Below, in pieces: positions 21,115 to 26,230 of a stretch of 64,000 nt of DNA. The position numbers were made by a program, and so were the translations under genes. Every line of letters begins with the position of its first letter. Position 1 is the stretch's first letter. Under the pieces are notes generated by a model. It made no database searches. It saw only the letters and a list, made by a program, of their open reading frames with translations, and had not been told where the DNA came from. Origin of the DNA: Ruminococcus sp. Lineage in GTDB: Bacteria > Bacillota > Clostridia > Oscillospirales > Ruminococcaceae. The stretch is from NCBI GenBank assembly GCA_017397925.1, contig JAFQHO010000047.1, positions 4,750 to 68,749 of the forward strand, in the 5' to 3' direction.

Positions 21115-21188
21115 CGAGGTGTGGCTCAGTTTGGTAGAGTACTACGTTCGGGACGTAGGGGACGCAGGTTCAAATCCTGTCACCTCGA
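21115..21188 (+). tRNA. tRNA-Pro (CGG)
   Basis: CGAGGTG/CACCTCG acceptor stem; CTACG-TTCGGGA-CGTAG anticodon arm; GGTTCAAATCC. Promoter TTGACT-17-TATAAT at 21064-21092; terminator at 21194-21224. Confidence 0.95.
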
Positions 21189-21233
21189 CTTTTAGCTGAT
21201 GTTGTTTTTACATCAGCTTTTTTTATTAATGAA

Positions 21234-21263
21234 AAAGCCTGTATCAAAAACGATACAGGCTTT
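21234..21263 (-). terminator. Terminator closing the dockerin/radical SAM operon
   Basis: AAAGCCTGTATC/GATACAGGCTTT, 6 nt after the rSAM stop, with a U-tract on the minus strand. Confidence 0.7.
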
Positions 21264-21269
21264 CTTAAT

Positions 21270-22343
21270 TCAGAATAAAATATCTTTAAAGCAAAGTTGT
21301 GGCTCACCCTTGTCAAAATCCCAACTGTGATAAGAATCACCATGACAACGGCATTTTTCAGAGCAATTACGGCACTTTTCATTTTCATCGCCAAGGTCTT
21401 TACGGAAGATATCAAAATTATTCTCCCATACATCCTTGAAACGGTCTTTAAGAATATTACCTCTGATAAACTCTGGTCGACGCTCAATATCAAGACACGC
21501 TGTAATATCTCCGTTCGCCATAATACTTGCAATATATGTACCAGCAACACAGAGATAATACCAATCACGCACCTCACGCTCATATTCTAAACCGAGGTAA
21601 TGGCTGCAACCATATGTAACAGGCTCCCCTGCTATTCGCTTATTTCTGATATATTCAAACATATAGCGATAATCATCAGGAGTTAGAAGAAGTTCAGGAT
21701 ACTGCTTCGCTCTGCCCATTGGCTCCATATTAATGATACGCCAAGAATCGATATCCATATCATTGAAAATCTTATAAAGTTCATTAAGCTGACCGATATT
21801 TTCATGTGTAACAACAGTTGTTACCTGTATAGCTTTAAATCCACCAACTTCAATAAGATTTTCTATGCCCTCCATAGCCTTTTTATAGCCGCCTGGAGTA
21901 CGTCTGAATGCGTCGTGGGTTGCTTCAAGTCCATCTATACTTACAGAAATTGTATCCATTCCTACACGCTTTAAATCCTTAGCAACCTGCTTATCAATAA
22001 GTGTAGCATTACTTGTCATACCCCAATTGAAGCCAAGTTCATTGGCTATTGCCATAATGTCAAAGAAATCCTTACGAAGAAGGGGTTCTCCACCTGTGAT
22101 ACAAAGCATTTTATTCTGTGTTCCAAAATCGCCTTTTATCTCTGCAAGGAATTTCGAATACTGCTGAGGTGTAAGCTCATCATAGAATACATCACCACAG
22201 TTACTTCCGCAATGGAGGCACTTTTCGTTACATTTGATTGTAAGCTCGAGGAAAAGATGACGAAGTTCAGGCTTTATCATAAGTCCTGCACGATAAGCCT
22301 CAATTGTTTTCATATGTTCAAGTTTTTTGTTTACATCAAGCAT
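21270..22343 (-). CDS. Radical SAM/SPASM peptide- or protein-modifying enzyme (resembles the rSAM/lipoprotein, splicease-like branch)
   Basis: LELTIKCNEKCLHCGSNC, ITGGEPLLR, WGMTSN, SWRIINMEPMGRA, YGCSHYLG...REVRD, SPASM Cys (CVAG, ITAC, CRNC...C). Confidence 0.85.
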   Translation of the reverse strand: MLDVNKKLEHMKTIEAYRAGLMIKPELRHLFLELTIKCNEKCLHCGSNCGDVFYDELTPQQYSKFLAEIKGDFGTQNKMLCITGGEPLLRKDFFDIMAIANELGFNWGMTSNATLIDKQVAKDLKRVGMDTISVSIDGLEATHDAFRRTPGGYKKAMEGIENLIEVGGFKAIQVTTVVTHENIGQLNELYKIFNDMDIDSWRIINMEPMGRAKQYPELLLTPDDYRYMFEYIRNKRIAGEPVTYGCSHYLGLEYEREVRDWYYLCVAGTYIASIMANGDITACLDIERRPEFIRGNILKDRFKDVWENNFDIFRKDLGDENEKCRNCSEKCRCHGDSYHSWDFDKGEPQLCFKDILF

Positions 22344-22356
22344 TTATATATTCTCC

Positions 22357-23223
22357 TTATTGAAATACACTCGGTGGACCGTATAATGGCGCAAAAGTTA
22401 CTTCTGTGGTGGTGATACTGTCATTCTCCTCTACGGTAGTTGTAAACCAAGAAGGCGGTCCGTATACTCCAGCAAGTTCTGTTCTTGTAGTTGTTGTAAC
22501 ATCTTCTCTTTCGGGGTAACGAATATCATCAATCTTTCCCATAAGATACTTATTTAGAAGCACCAGGTCAGCAACAGAAATCTTCATATCGTTGTTTACA
22601 TCAGCTGCGAAACTATAATTTGTATTGTTTTCAGCAAATCTCTCACGAAGTAGTATCATATCAAATACATCAAGTCTGTTATCAGCATTCACATCACCAT
22701 ATAGCGGTGCAGGGCCGTATACAGGCTGACCATTTGTCTGAAGTTCGGCTATTACATAGTCTGTTGTAGTCGTTGTATCATTAATATCAGGAGCTGTAGT
22801 TGTAGTAAACACAGAAGGAGGACCGTAAAGAGTATTAAAAGCAGTTGTATTTATTACAGTAGTTGTTGTCCAATTTTCAAACTCATCTTCATCAGGGGCC
22901 TTTGTTGTCATATACTCAGGCGGACCATATAATGGTACTGTTGTAGGTCTAGTTACAACACCCTCTTCATCATAATTATTACCGTAATCATAATCTGACG
23001 GTGGCGGGCCATATACAGCAGACATTTTTGAATTCAGTTCCTTGATTGCATCAATTGAGATACCCGATTGACTATCAGCAACGCTTTCCATACCTACTAC
23101 AGAGGTTGTAGTTGATGTAAATGCAGCGCCTGCCTCAACAGGCTCAGCAGCTGCATTTGCAGTACCATACATTGCTGCGGCAAAAATAGCAGCAGTTAAA
23201 GCCGTTTTTTCAGTTTTTTTCAT
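22357..23223 (-). CDS. Secreted dockerin protein with six [VL]YGP[PA] repeats; putative rSAM substrate
   Basis: Signal peptide; dockerin YGDVNADNRLDVFDMILL...ADVNNDMKISVADLVLLNKYL (about aa 175-231); YGP motifs at Y71, 99, 133, 169, 254, 281 separated by Thr-rich spacers. Confidence 0.8.
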   Translation of the reverse strand: MKKTEKTALTAAIFAAAMYGTANAAAEPVEAGAAFTSTTTSVVGMESVADSQSGISIDAIKELNSKMSAVYGPPPSDYDYGNNYDEEGVVTRPTTVPLYGPPEYMTTKAPDEDEFENWTTTTVINTTAFNTLYGPPSVFTTTTAPDINDTTTTTDYVIAELQTNGQPVYGPAPLYGDVNADNRLDVFDMILLRERFAENNTNYSFAADVNNDMKISVADLVLLNKYLMGKIDDIRYPEREDVTTTTRTELAGVYGPPSWFTTTVEENDSITTTEVTFAPLYGPPSVFQ

Positions 23224-23410
23224 AAAAATTCTCCTCTCATAATATTATCAGTTTAAAAGTAAAGCTATACAGGCTATTATAACTTTACCATATGAATATA
23301 ACTATCCATTTATATTATACATCAATAACATATCTATTTCAAGTAATTTAGCAAAATTCAACAAACATTCGTAACGTTGCACAAAATAGCAACTGTAGAT
23401 TTGGCGAATA

Positions 23411-26230
23411 TTACAAATATTTTTTCAAATACTTTCCTGTATATGATTTATCACACTTTGCTACTTCCTCTGGAGTTCCTACAGCAACAATTGTTCCACC
23501 GCCGTCACCACCCTCGGGACCAAGATCGATGATATAATCAGCTGACTTAATAACATTAAGGTTATGTTCGATAACAAGAACAGTGTTCCCCTGGTCTGTA
23601 AGCTGCTGCAATACATCAATAAGCTTGTGTACATCAGCTGTATGAAGTCCTGTTGTAGGCTCATCAAGGATATAAATTGTCTGACCTGTAGCACGCTTTG
23701 AAAGTTCGGTAGAAAGCTTTACACGCTGTGCTTCTCCTCCAGAAAGAGTTGTGGCAGGCTGACCGATTTTGATATATCCAAGTCCGACTTCCTGTAGTGT
23801 TTTGAGTTTACGGGCAATTTTTGGCAGATGCTCAAAAAATTCCACTCCCTCATCAACCGTCATCTCGAGTATATCATATATTGATTTACCCTTGTAGTGT
23901 ACTTCGAGGGTTTCACGATTGTATCTCCTGCCCTTGCAGACCTCGCAGGGAACGTATATATCGGGTAGAAAATGCATTTCTATCTTGATAATACCATCAC
24001 CCTCACAAGCTTCACATCTTCCGCCTTTGACATTAAAACTAAAGCGTCCGCTGTTATATCCTCTTGCTTTCGCGTCAGGAGTCATTGCAAAAAGCTCACG
24101 AATATCATTAAACACACCCGTATAAGTGGCAGGATTTGAACGTGGTGTACGACCTATAGGTGACTGGTCTATACAAATAACCTTATCAAGATTTTCAAGT
24201 CCTATCATCTCTCTGAACTTTCCGCTTACTGTCTTTGCCCTGTTAAGCTTATGAGCAAGATGCTTATGAATTATAGCATTTACAAGAGAAGATTTGCCAC
24301 TGCCAGATACTCCTGTAACGCAAATCAGTTCACCTAATGGAATATCTATATCAATATTTTTCAGATTATTCTCTGTTGCCCCTTTGACTGTAAGATATTT
24401 TCCATTACCCTCACGTCTTTTCTTAGGTACAGGGATTTTTTTCTTACCACTCAAGTATTGTCCTGTAATTGAATTTCTGCATTTCATTAATTTATCTACA
24501 GAACCCGAAAATACAACGTTTCCACCGTTTACTCCTGCTCCAGGACCAATATCTACAATATAATCCGCCGCAAGCATTGTATCATCATCATGTTCAACTA
24601 CAATAAGAGTATTTCCAAGGTCACGAAGTTTTTTCAGCGTTGCAATAAGCTTGTCATTATCACGCTGATGAAGTCCGATACTTGGCTCATCAAGAATATA
24701 AAGCACACCTACAAGGGATGAACCAATCTGTGTTGCAAGTCTGATACGCTGTGACTCTCCTCCGGAAAGTGTTCCTGAGGAACGTGAAAGTGTAAGATAT
24801 CCAAGCCCTACACTACTGAGAAAGTTAAGTCGTTCCTTAATTTCCTTTATTATACGTTCACCAATCAGCTTTTCCTGTTCAGTAAGATTAAGGTTACTGA
24901 AAAAGTCAAGAGAATTTTTTACAGAGAAATCAGTAATATCACTTATATTTCTATCTCCTACTGTAACAGCAAGATATTCGGGGCGAAGTCGTCTGCCGTG
25001 ACATTCGGGGCAATCACACTCTGTCATAGTTTCCTCTATAACCGCTTTGCTGTAATCGCTGTTGGTTTCGCGATATCTTCTTTCAAGATTTGGTATAATT
25101 CCTTCAAAAGGAGTTCTATACTTTCCTCCTCCAAGAGATGCAGGACGACGAAGCTCCAGCTCGGTAGTACCAGTACCATAGAGGAAGATATTAATCTGCT
25201 CTTTTTTAAGCTTTTTTACAGGAACATCAAGAGGAATATCATAATATTTTGAAATGGCTTTATAATACATCATAGCAATTGATGTATCATCAAGACTATT
25301 CCAACCGCTTGCATTTATGGCGCCCTCTACAATAGATAATTCCTTATCAGGAATAATTATATCAGGGTCTATTTGTCTGAATACTCCAAGTCCAGTACAT
25401 TTAGGACAGGCACCCACTGGATTATTAAAGGAAAACATTACAGGCTCTAAATCACCGATACTTATGTTATGTTCAGGACAGGCAAAATTACGTGAAAACA
25501 GCATTTCCTCTCCGTCTATTACGTCAATAAGAGCAATACCCTCTGTAAGCTTGAATATAGTTTCAAGACTATCTGTTACACGTGTCTCTATTCCCTCTTT
25601 GATAATAATTCTGTCGACAACAATTTCAATGTTGTGCTTTTTATTCTTATCTATCTTGATTTCCTCAGAAAGGTCATATATTATACCGTCAATACGAGCA
25701 CGCACAAATCCTGATTTTCTTGCAGCTTCAAGCTCCTTAGCAAATTGTCCCTTGCGATTTCTTGCAATGGGTGCAAGAAGCTGTGCTTTTGTTCCTTGCG
25801 GCAGCTCCATTATTTTATCTACCATCTGGTCAATCGTCTGCTGTGCGATTTCTCTTCCGCAAACCGGACAATGAGGTATACCTATTCTTGCATAAAGCAG
25901 TCGCAGGTAGTCGTATATTTCCGTAACAGTTCCAACTGTTGAACGCGGATTCTTTGATGTTGTTTTCTGGTCTATTGATATTGCCGGAGAAAGTCCTTCT
26001 ATGCTGTCGACATCCGGCTTTTCCATTTGTCCTAAGAACATTCTGGCATAGGATGAGAGGCTCTCCACGTATCTACGCTGACCATCTGCGTAAATCGTAT
26101 CAAAGGCAAGAGAAGATTTTCCCGAACCTGAAAGTCCTGTCATTACGATAAATTTATCTCTTGGCAGTTCAAGGTCAATGTTTTTAAGATTATTTGTCCT
26201 TGCTCCCTTAATTTTTATTTTATCTATCAT
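23411..26230 (-). CDS. uvrA: Excinuclease ABC subunit A
   Basis: Two ABC cassettes ([23 protein letters not shown]), Zn fingers; 939 aa. Confidence 0.97.

What the first reader, a model, noticed from the sequence alone, without database searches (positions are those of the whole stretch)
21270..23223. Radical SAM enzyme paired with a six-YGP-repeat substrate: candidate splicease-type protein modification system
Seen: a two-gene minus-strand operon with a 13-nt gap and its own terminator at 21234-21263. The upstream 288-aa secreted protein has six near-identical motifs (AVYGPP, PLYGPP, TLYGPP, PVYGPA, GVYGPP, PLYGPP; Tyr71, 99, 133, 169, 254, 281). They are spaced 27-36 aa apart by disordered Thr-rich linkers, except where the dockerin intervenes, and the last motif forms the C-terminus. 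The downstream gene is a SPASM rSAM enzyme. Known: PlpX-type spliceases excise tyramine at Tyr-Gly motifs to install alpha-keto-beta-amino acids. From memory, the rSAM sequence (WGMTSN, SWRI...PMGRA, YGC..YLG..E.EVRD, C.AG) resembles the Bacteroidetes rSAM/lipoprotein family (TIGR04133, partner TIGR04134). Inference: the enzyme modifies each YG site, yielding a multivalent ketoamide-bearing (or Tyr-crosslinked) protein. No separate RRE/PqqD gene is visible, so recognition would be intrinsic or supplied in trans.
Basis: partly seen in the sequence, partly recalled or inferred. Interest (0 to 1): 0.9.

Follow-up and report, generated by a model that had tools for sequence, protein, structure and literature searches.

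The report
Radical SAM enzyme with YGPP-repeat dockerin partner
A rumen Ruminococcus encodes a secreted, cellulosome-docking protein with six Tyr-Gly-Pro-Pro motifs just upstream of a radical SAM enzyme; this pairing recurs across many bacteria and an archaeon, so the motif is very probably the site of a still-unknown protein modification.

Summary
On the minus strand a 288-aa protein is followed after 13 nt by a 357-aa radical SAM/SPASM enzyme, then a strong terminator. The 288-aa protein has a signal peptide, six [VL]YGP[PA] sites, a dockerin and no Cys.

The motif is not a chance or general linker feature. In the whole genome only this protein carries it more than once.

The enzyme-motif link is strong:
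- 9 of 9 same-genus loci read keep the pair.
- 74 of 80 named loci (43-90% enzyme identity, six phyla) have YGP proteins beside the enzyme.
- Three natural fusions join the enzyme to the motif.
- More distant relatives in Clostridium, Methanocella, a deltaproteobacterium and Zixibacteria have YGP partners too.
- No third gene is conserved.

The enzyme's best family is TIGR04133, the untested "rSAM/lipoprotein system", but it scores below the cut-off. The partner does not match TIGR04134.

It is not a member of the splicease family (114 bits against a cut-off of 725), so tyramine splicing is only one possible chemistry.

The model resembles anSME, SuiB and SkfB and has no RRE domain.

The dockerin partner is a derived, Ruminococcus-specific variant. 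The chemistry is unknown and needs mass spectrometry.

The parts
23314..23342 (-). Promoter-like site TTGAAA-17-TATAAT, about 90 nt upstream of the partner's ATG
   Evidence: 11 of 12 matches. This is a consensus match only.
22357..23223 (-). Partner (substrate) gene: a 288-aa secreted protein with six YGP sites, a dockerin, no Cys and Thr-rich linkers
   Evidence: Orthologous partners sit directly upstream of the rSAM gene in all 9 same-genus loci read.
23149..23223 (-). Sec-type signal peptide (MKKTEKTALTAAIFAAAMYGTANA|AAEP; the cleavage site is inferred)
   Evidence: Read from the sequence. The N-terminus is conserved among orthologous partners. No signal-peptide predictor was run.
23002..23016 (-). 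Motif 1, VYGPP (Tyr71)
22918..22932 (-). Motif 2, LYGPP (Tyr99)
22816..22830 (-). Motif 3, LYGPP (Tyr133)
22708..22722 (-). Motif 4, VYGPA (Tyr169), directly before the dockerin
22543..22701 (-). Type I dockerin (residues 175-227)
   Evidence: Pfam PF00404, 33.3 bits against a cut-off of 22.9. The genome has cohesins and about 98 dockerin matches.
22453..22467 (-). Motif 5, VYGPP (Tyr254)
22372..22386 (-). Motif 6, LYGPP (Tyr281), 4 residues before the stop
22344..22356 (-). 13-nt intergenic spacer with a GGAG ribosome-binding site for the rSAM gene
21270..22343 (-). Radical SAM/SPASM enzyme, 357 aa, TIGR04133-like
22209..22232 (-). CX3CX2C radical SAM cluster motif (C38, C42, C45), followed by the invariant C49
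   Evidence: Invariant in 38 sequences
21291..21608 (-). SPASM region. C265, C283, C324, C327, C333, C351 and H339 are invariant and C246 is nearly so. The canonical fourth Cys of CX2CX5CX3C is absent (Ser337).
21234..21263 (-). Intrinsic terminator that closes the two-gene operon
   Evidence: dG -20.7 kcal/mol, z -6.85

Best explanation
This is a two-gene protein-maturation system.

Proposed pathway:
1. In the cytoplasm, the radical SAM/SPASM enzyme recognises each short hydrophobic-Tyr-Gly-Pro-Pro site in the unfolded, Cys-free partner. It does this without a leader peptide or an RRE domain, much as anSME recognises the C/S-x-P-x-R site of sulfatases before export.
2. It cleaves SAM reductively. 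The resulting 5'-deoxyadenosyl radical abstracts a hydrogen at the Tyr-Gly unit, most likely from Tyr C-beta.
3. The auxiliary Fe-S clusters complete an oxidative, Tyr-centred modification at every site.
4. The modified protein is exported by Sec and its signal peptide is removed.
5. Its dockerin plugs it into a cohesin of the cellulosome. The cell thus displays an array of six modified sites on Thr-rich linkers.

Shown here: gene organisation, motif, domains, the conserved enzyme-motif pairing, the fusions, the lack of any third component, and an anSME/SuiB/SkfB-like fold.

Inferred: that the motif is the modification site, that Tyr is the target, that modification comes before export, and that the protein docks on the cellulosome.

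Not determined: the chemistry. My split:
- About 0.4: a 2-electron oxidation without backbone excision (dehydro-Tyr or a Tyr cross-link, -2 Da).
- About 0.2: tyramine splicing to a ketoamide.
- About 0.2: another modification.
- About 0.2: no modification at YGP.
For: - Operon: a 13-nt gap, an RBS, a shared promoter-like site and one strong terminator.
- Uniqueness: the motif is repeated in no other protein of this genome.
- Same genus: 18 of 37 genomes have the enzyme. All 9 loci read have a YGP-repeat protein directly upstream, sometimes two or three in tandem.
- Named loci: of 80 loci at 43-90% enzyme identity from Bacillota, Actinomycetota, Planctomycetota, Spirochaetota and Chloroflexota, 74 have 105 adjacent same-strand YGP ORFs.
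- Motif logo from 293 sites: Y and G are 100% (the sites were collected as YG), P at +2 is 87%, P at +3 is 81%, and V/L/I at -1 is 81%.
- Three partner types share only the motif: dockerin proteins, small acidic lipoproteins or secreted proteins, and cytoplasmic double zinc-ribbon proteins.
- Natural fusions of enzyme and motif: P0132, P0136 and P0133.
- Distant relatives at about 34-36% identity also have YGP partners: Clostridium swellfunianum, Methanocella, a deltaproteobacterial MAG and Zixibacteria.
- No other conserved neighbour was found: no peptidase, transporter or RRE.
- The partner evolves fast except at its signal peptide, dockerin and YG sites. It is 62% identical where the enzyme is 90%, and about 40% where the enzyme is 72-83%.
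- All cluster ligands are invariant.
- AF2 model: pLDDT 93.3, with only one helix before the core. The best PDB folds are SkfB, SuiB and anSME, with TM 0.72-0.74 to anSME over its full length.
Against: - There is no biochemical, proteomic or transcript evidence.
- The enzyme is below the cut-off of every curated family. No solved structure is close in sequence; the best is 58 bits.
- Of the 80 loci, 6 show no YGP neighbour: 2 at a contig end, 3 without one, and 1 (L083) with only a YGTNP protein.
- The canonical fourth Cys of the SPASM CX2CX5CX3C motif is missing, so cluster content is uncertain.
- Hydrogen abstraction from Tyr, modification before export and cohesin binding are inferences.
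Confidence: 0.78

Rival explanations
1. Splicease reading. The enzyme excises a tyramine equivalent at each X-Tyr-Gly site and leaves an alpha-keto-beta-amino acid (ketoamide) derived from the preceding Val or Leu. The result would be a cellulosome-docked, multivalent electrophile, for example a protease inhibitor.
For: - Known spliceases act at XYG motifs. They can work without a leader on proteins, and binary systems without a Y protein exist (PMC11414181).
- Tyr-Gly was present at every collected site.
- The -1 residue is conserved within clades: V/L in Bacillota, K in Clostridium and Methanocella, E in Zixibacteria. That would fit a P1-like side chain in a ketoamide.
- TIGR04103 is among the enzyme's hits. 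It is the second-best family for the Zixibacteria relative.
Against: - TIGR04103 scores 114.4 bits against a cut-off of 725. This is no better than AhbD, NirJ2 or MftC (147, 136, 134 bits), so it reflects generic SPASM similarity only.
- Described spliceases need a Y protein or an alpha-helical leader segment that binds the enzyme. Here the sites sit in Thr-rich or acidic linkers, and no third gene is conserved.
- The strict Pro-Pro after Gly is not part of the XYG motif as that paper describes it.
Confidence: 0.2
2. RiPP-precursor reading. The partner is a multi-core precursor. The YGPP sites are recognition or cleavage marks, and the functional products are short released peptides rather than the whole docked protein.
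For: Small partners outside Ruminococcus look like arrays of 15-residue units ending in VYGPP. Tandem precursor genes occur, up to six before one enzyme in L032 and L035.
Against: - No peptidase or transporter is conserved nearby.
- Partners carry signal peptides or lipoboxes, dockerins or folded zinc ribbons. These argue for a function as intact, tethered proteins.
- The inter-motif sequence is poorly conserved.
Confidence: 0.07
3. The pairing is not enzyme and substrate. The enzyme acts on a small molecule or cofactor (as AhbD, NirJ or MoaA do), or on another protein. The YGP protein would be only a co-transcribed neighbour or an accessory factor.
For: After TIGR04133, the next NCBIfam hits are the heme enzymes AhbD and NirJ2. 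Zinc-ribbon partners could in principle be redox partners.
Against: - The three partner types share nothing but the YGP motif, and one type is Cys-free and exported.
- Fusions attach the motif itself to the enzyme.
- No tetrapyrrole or cofactor genes are conserved nearby.
- The best fold matches are peptide- or protein-modifying SPASM enzymes.
Confidence: 0.05

Closest known systems
TIGR04133 / TIGR04134 'rSAM/lipoprotein system' (NCBIfam hypothetical equivalogs; function never tested)
   Same: - TIGR04133 is the best family for the enzyme. It aligns over residues 11-352 to profile positions 7-345 of 350.
- The architecture is the same: two genes, no RRE, an exported partner.
- A partner that reaches the TIGR04134 cut-off (Zixibacteria P0510, 39.8 bits) carries EYGPGPEYGPVIEYGVP just after its lipobox. 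The Y-G-(x)-P site is therefore shared.
   Different: - The enzyme is below the cut-off (257.5 against 425). It falls in a separate, well-supported clade.
- The partner does not match TIGR04134.
- The partner has an SPase-I-type signal peptide rather than a lipobox.
- It has six sites spread on Thr-rich linkers rather than a cluster next to the lipid anchor, plus a dockerin.
Tyramine spliceases (PlpX, PcpX, RhaX; TIGR04103; spliceotides)
   Same: They are radical SAM/SPASM enzymes that act at X-Tyr-Gly. They can modify proteins without a leader, and binary enzyme-plus-substrate systems exist (PMC11414181).
   Different: - The HMM score is 114 against a cut-off of 725.
- There is no Y protein, and no helical leader was seen in the sequences read.
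- Pro-Pro is required after Gly.
- Substrates here are exported surface proteins.
Anaerobic sulfatase-maturating enzyme (anSME)
   Same: - It works the same way in outline: a SPASM enzyme without an RRE that modifies a short motif (C/S-x-P-x-R, also with Pro at +2) in an unfolded protein before export. This comparison rests on established knowledge.
- It is the closest full-length structural match, with TMq 0.72-0.74 and TMt about 0.71.
   Different: - No anSME family appears among the 25 best NCBIfam hits shown of 69.
- The target residue is Tyr, not Cys or Ser.
- There are many sites per substrate.
- The substrate is not a sulfatase.
MftC (mycofactocin) and PqqE (PQQ): SPASM enzymes that act on Tyr in a ribosomal peptide
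   Same: Both carry out Tyr-directed radical chemistry on a gene-encoded substrate. MftA ends in Val-Tyr, which recalls the V-Y of the motif (established knowledge). MftC scores 133.7 bits.
   Different: - Scores are below the cut-offs: MftC 133.7 against 265, PqqE 72 against 381.
- Both need an RRE protein (MftB, PqqD), and MftC needs a C-terminal Tyr (established knowledge). Here the sites are internal and no RRE exists.

Membership tests
Radical SAM / SPASM superfamily (PF04055 + PF13186) | CX3CX2C cluster motif and a Cys-rich SPASM C-terminal domain, with both Pfam models over threshold | tested here: met
   PF04055 scores 79 bits against 29.5 and PF13186 scores 33.6 against 21.5. C38, C42 and C45 plus C265, C283, C324, C327, C333 and C351 are invariant.
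Radical SAM / SPASM superfamily (PF04055 + PF13186) | Canonical seven-Cys SPASM pattern, including CX2CX5CX3C | tested here: not met
   The fourth Cys of the motif is Ser337. His339 is invariant instead, and C49 and C246 are additional conserved Cys. The ligand set is therefore uncertain.
TIGR04133 (rSAM_w_lipo) | Score at or above the curated cut-off of 425 bits | tested here: not met
   257.5 bits. It is the best hit and aligns over the full length.
TIGR04133 (rSAM_w_lipo) | Adjacent TIGR04134 lipoprotein partner | tested here: not met
   The partner has no TIGR04134 hit even at E up to 10. The genome has none. The partner has a dockerin and an SPase-I-type signal peptide.
TIGR04133 (rSAM_w_lipo) | Partner carries a Y-G-(x)-P site (a shared feature inferred here, not a curated criterion) | tested here: met
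   There are six sites in the window's partner. The TIGR04134-level partner P0510 has EYGPGPEYGPVIEYGVP.
Tyramine spliceases (TIGR04103 / spliceotide X proteins) | Score at or above the curated cut-off of 725 bits | tested here: not met
   114.4 bits.
Tyramine spliceases (TIGR04103 / spliceotide X proteins) | XYG motif in the substrate | tested here: met
   Six [VL]-Y-G sites.
Tyramine spliceases (TIGR04103 / spliceotide X proteins) | A Y protein (RRE-like) or an activating helical leader segment (PMC11414181) | tested here: not met
   No third conserved gene was found in 80 loci. The enzyme has only one helix before its core. A helical segment in the partner was not modelled.
Tyramine spliceases (TIGR04103 / spliceotide X proteins) | Excision of a tyramine equivalent to give an alpha-keto-beta-amino acid | not testable with these tools
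   Needs mass spectrometry of the co-expressed proteins.
Type I dockerin (PF00404) / cellulosomal component | Dockerin domain over threshold, in a genome that has cohesins | tested here: met
   33.3 bits against 22.9. There are 6 cohesin matches, 4 over the cut-off, and about 98 dockerin matches in the genome. Which cohesin it binds was not tested.
Classical RiPP pathway | Leader and core precursor with an RRE, plus a peptidase and/or transporter in the cluster | tested here: not met
   Only the partner genes are conserved beside the enzyme. There is no RRE domain.

The most novel reading that the evidence does not exclude
The [VLIK]-Y-G-P-P site is a portable, leader-independent tag for a very large, uncharacterised family of gut and rumen radical SAM enzymes. 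These would turn Tyr-Gly into a reactive or redox-active group: either a ketoamide warhead made by tyramine splicing, or a Tyr-derived quinone-like or cross-linked cofactor. In Ruminococcus the tag array has been placed on a dockerin. The cellulosome would then carry a non-enzymatic subunit modified at six sites, for example a multivalent protease inhibitor that protects the complex, or a surface redox or adhesive element.
Probability: 0.2. Interest if true: 0.9.

Novelty: new variant of a known kind. Interest (0 to 1): 0.72.

Why it matters
If the inference holds, this is a protein-level post-translational modification that nobody has characterised. One enzyme writes it on a five-residue tag, and it is common in rumen and gut anaerobes.

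- The enzyme family is large. A search with a more distant TIGR04133-like relative (P0183) gave 6984 clusters at E <= 1e-40 among the 8000 candidates scored.
- It spans several bacterial phyla and a Methanocella archaeon.
- The Ruminococcus form would add a chemically modified, non-catalytic subunit to the cellulosome.
- A short, leader-independent tag with a single-enzyme writer could also serve protein engineering, as splice tags already do.
- The question can be tested directly with two genes in E. coli and a mass spectrometer.

Tried and rejected
- Literature: searches for TIGR04133, YGPP + radical SAM, radical SAM + dockerin + SPASM, SPASM + lipoprotein + tyrosine + repeat, splicease and spliceotide found no paper on this pair.
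- Partner families: Pfam and NCBIfam hold no family for the YGP partners apart from TIGR04134 for the Zixibacteria type.
- The first related-loci run, with a 40-sequence alignment, failed because no stretch was conserved enough. A 12-sequence alignment worked.
Loci found on the minus strand are not re-oriented, which briefly made L013 and L015 look as if they lacked a partner.
- The look-up of encoding contigs gave nothing for the Methanocella paludicola protein P0368 and no DNA for P0183. P0375 and P0435 were used instead.
- Sequence search of the PDB gave only distant hits, 58 bits at best.
- Rejected: a cofactor-biosynthesis role like AhbD or NirJ, a generic Thr/Pro linker motif, and a classical RiPP cluster. 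Reasons are given under the rival explanations.
- Not done: a test of whether genomes lacking the enzyme also lack YGP-repeat proteins. The motif is too short and the dockerin too common for a clean genome search.
Full report
**1. What is in the window**

On the minus strand, 22357-23223 encodes a 288-aa protein and 21270-22343 a 357-aa protein. They are 13 nt apart (GGAGAATATATAA), and the spacer holds a GGAG ribosome-binding site. A promoter-like TTGAAA-17-TATAAT lies about 90 nt upstream at 23342..23314. A 15-bp hairpin with a U-run at 21234-21263 closes the unit (dG -20.7 kcal/mol, z -6.85). A tRNA-Pro(CGG) gene on the other strand follows at 21115-21189, and uvrA lies upstream at 23411-26230.

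The 288-aa protein has these features:
- A Sec-type N-terminus.
- Six [VL]YGP[PA] sites, with Tyr at 71, 99, 133, 169, 254 and 281.
- No Cys and 15% Thr.
- A type I dockerin at residues 175-227 (33.3 bits).

The 357-aa protein has Radical_SAM and SPASM domains.

**2. Is the motif more than chance?**

Yes. Among the 8364 ORFs of at least 60 aa in the whole genome, YGP[PA] occurs in five. This protein has six copies. The other four have one each, and two of those are Walker-A-like LYGPPGxG sites.

The genome is that of a cellulosome producer. It has cohesin matches and about 98 dockerin matches. Among all those dockerin proteins, this is the only one with the motif. YGPP is therefore not a general Ruminococcus linker feature.

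**3. The enzyme**

The best NCBIfam family is TIGR04133 ("rSAM_w_lipo", a hypothetical equivalog). It scores 257.5 bits over residues 11-352, below the curated cut-off of 425. Then come:

| Family | Bits | Cut-off |
|---|---|---|
| AhbD | 147 | 500 |
| NirJ2 | 136 | 500 |
| MftC | 134 | 265 |
| TIGR04103 (splicease) | 114 | 725 |

In an alignment of 38 family members down to 33% identity, the following are invariant: C38, C42, C45, C49, C265, C283, C324, C327, C333, C351 and H339. C246 is nearly invariant. The fourth Cys of the canonical CX2CX5CX3C motif is absent (Ser337).

AlphaFold2 gives a confident model (pLDDT 93.3, pTM 0.90). Only one helix (residues 4-23) precedes the barrel, so there is no RRE domain. 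Foldseek finds peptide- and protein-modifying SPASM enzymes first: SkfB, SuiB, anSME (TM 0.72-0.74 over its full length) and CteB. No solved structure is close by sequence; the best is 58 bits.

**4. The enzyme-motif pairing elsewhere**

*Same genus.* Orthologues at 70-92% identity occur in 18 of 37 genomes, and in none of 24 other families sampled from the order. All nine loci I read have a YGP-repeat protein directly upstream, with signal peptide and dockerin. Some have a second or third YGP gene in tandem.

*Named genomes.* A scan returned 80 loci at 43-90% enzyme identity. They come from Ruminococcus, other Oscillospiraceae, Lachnospiraceae and Butyrivibrio, Erysipelotrichaceae, Coriobacteriia, Planctomycetota, Treponemataceae and Anaerolineaceae. 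Nearly all are rumen or gut MAGs. Of these, 74 have 105 same-strand YGP ORFs next to the enzyme. Of the six without one, two are cut by a contig end, three show none within 1.2 kb, and L083 has only a secreted protein with YGTNP.

*Motif logo.* The 293 sites were collected as Tyr-Gly, so those two positions are fixed by construction. The other positions give P at +2 87%, P at +3 81%, V/L/I at -1 81% and F at +6 30%.

*Conserved neighbours.* Clustering all neighbouring ORFs finds only the partners as conserved neighbours. There is no peptidase, transporter or RRE.

**5. Three partner types that share only the motif**

- (a) Dockerin proteins, found only where the enzyme is at least 66% identical to the window's.
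- (b) Small acidic secreted proteins or lipoproteins of 60-250 aa, with 1-7 units such as YDPxxNVxxDVYGPPxDF.
- (c) Cytoplasmic double zinc-ribbon proteins with a single C[IV]YGP[PM]P between the ribbons. These occur in ten loci.

On a FastTree of 100 enzymes the partner types follow the enzyme phylogeny:
- The dockerin clade (support 99) is nested inside the small-lipoprotein clade.
- The zinc-ribbon clade is its sister.
- A clade of enzymes fused to a JAB/MPN-like domain lies outside.
- The TIGR04133-like clade also lies outside.

The window's system is thus a derived, Ruminococcus-specific form in which the motif array was placed on a cellulosomal dockerin module.

**6. Fusions and distant relatives**

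The search of 50%-identity representatives found 323 representatives at E <= 1e-30. Among them were three natural fusions:
- P0132: enzyme, then ...AVIYGPPEML..., then a zinc ribbon.
- P0136: enzyme, then a zinc ribbon, then ...TLYGPPPMNY....
- P0133: three VYG sites, then the enzyme.

Relatives nearer to TIGR04133 (372-391 bits) also have YGP partners:
- Clostridium swellfunianum has two tiny lipoproteins, NKYGPPVSKYGPPTSY and GKYGPPPTPKYGPPPVT.
- A Methanocella MAG has a membrane protein with MGKYGPPPTP...VKYGAPVPP.
- A deltaproteobacterial MAG has a lipoprotein-like protein with about nine [LMEQ]YGP sites.
- A Zixibacteria MAG has a lipoprotein that reads WVEYGPGPEYGPVIEYGVPYATY. It reaches the TIGR04134 cut-off exactly, at 39.8 bits.

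The Y-G-(x)-P site therefore links the window's system to the catalogued TIGR04133/TIGR04134 pair.

**7. How the partner evolves**

Where the enzyme is 90% identical, the partner is 62% identical. Where the enzyme is 72-83%, the partner is about 40%. Copy number varies from 1 to 7. Only the signal peptide, the dockerin and the YG(P) sites stay aligned. This is the pattern expected of a substrate constrained only at its modification sites and its sorting modules.

**8. Interpretation**

The best-supported reading is a minimal, leader-independent maturase-substrate pair. The cytoplasmic radical SAM enzyme modifies each YGPP site of the unfolded partner. The partner is then exported and docked on the cellulosome.

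The logic resembles anSME, which modifies a short C/S-x-P-x-R site in proteins bound for export and is the closest full-length fold (the anSME mechanism is established knowledge).

The chemistry is not determined. Nor does the lack of a Y protein or helical activating segment, which described spliceases use (PMC11414181). Still, known spliceases do act at XYG, so splicing remains a live candidate at about 0.2.

Alternatives include a 2-electron oxidation at Tyr C-beta, giving dehydro-Tyr or a cross-link. This follows by analogy with anSME, MftC and the cyclophane-forming SPASM enzymes (inference only).

**9. Known or new?**

I found no paper on this pair. Pfam and NCBIfam have no model for the dockerin, acidic-repeat or zinc-ribbon partners.

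The only prior description is the computational TIGR04133/TIGR04134 "rSAM/lipoprotein system", whose function is untested. Earlier agents of this scan reached the same general reading on other genomes. I treated those notes as leads and re-derived the evidence here.

I rate the finding a new variant of a known but uncharacterised kind.

**10. Limits**

No signal-peptide predictor was run. The tree is FastTree only. The modification site, its timing and cohesin binding are all inferred.

Noticed in passing
L087 3370-3816, L089 3689-3961, L098 1396-1668, L091 5056-5364, L093 5212-5949, L096 5061-5495, L097 5113-5757, L099 5139-5519: A second partner class for the more divergent enzymes (43-48% identity; Planctomycetota, Treponemataceae, Anaerolineaceae, some Clostridia). 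These are small cytoplasmic proteins with two zinc ribbons and one C[IV]YGP[PM]P site between them. The same module is fused to the C-terminus of the enzyme in P0132 and P0136.
   Followed up: partly
Proteins P0139-P0153, P0164, P0170, P0190: A sister clade of about 530-670-aa proteins in which the TIGR04133-like radical SAM domain is fused to a C-terminal domain with a JAB/MPN-like GF(A/V)HSHP motif. An earlier scan note pairs this clade with 'YYGCPNS'-tagged lipopeptides. I did not test that.
   Followed up: no
L032 148-3982 and L035 62-3982: Six tandem genes for YGP proteins, most with dockerins, precede a single radical SAM gene. One enzyme may therefore serve a whole family of substrates.
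   Followed up: no
Tree (L087, L089, L095, L098, L100): Enzymes from Planctomycetota, Chloroflexota and Bacillota rumen MAGs form one tight clade with branch lengths of 0.12-0.4. This suggests recent horizontal transfer of the pair among rumen organisms, or mis-binned contigs.
   Followed up: no
window 21115-21218: A tRNA-Pro(CGG) gene on the + strand (21115-21189) has its own terminator-like hairpin (21194-21218). It converges on the operon's terminator, so the two units end within about 20 nt of each other.
   Followed up: partly
window 21291-21608 (enzyme residues 246-351): Across the family the SPASM motif reads CX2CX5C-x5-H. The His is invariant and the usual fourth Cys is missing, while an extra invariant Cys (C49) sits four residues after the CX3CX2C motif. 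This hints at an unusual ligand set or an open site on one auxiliary cluster.
   Followed up: partly
L004 405-767; L013 3439-3711 (minus strand): In some Ruminococcus genomes a small YGPP protein without a dockerin lies upstream of the dockerin-type partner. It is 120 aa in L004 and 90 aa with a lipobox in L013. Both partner types can therefore coexist in one locus.
   Followed up: no
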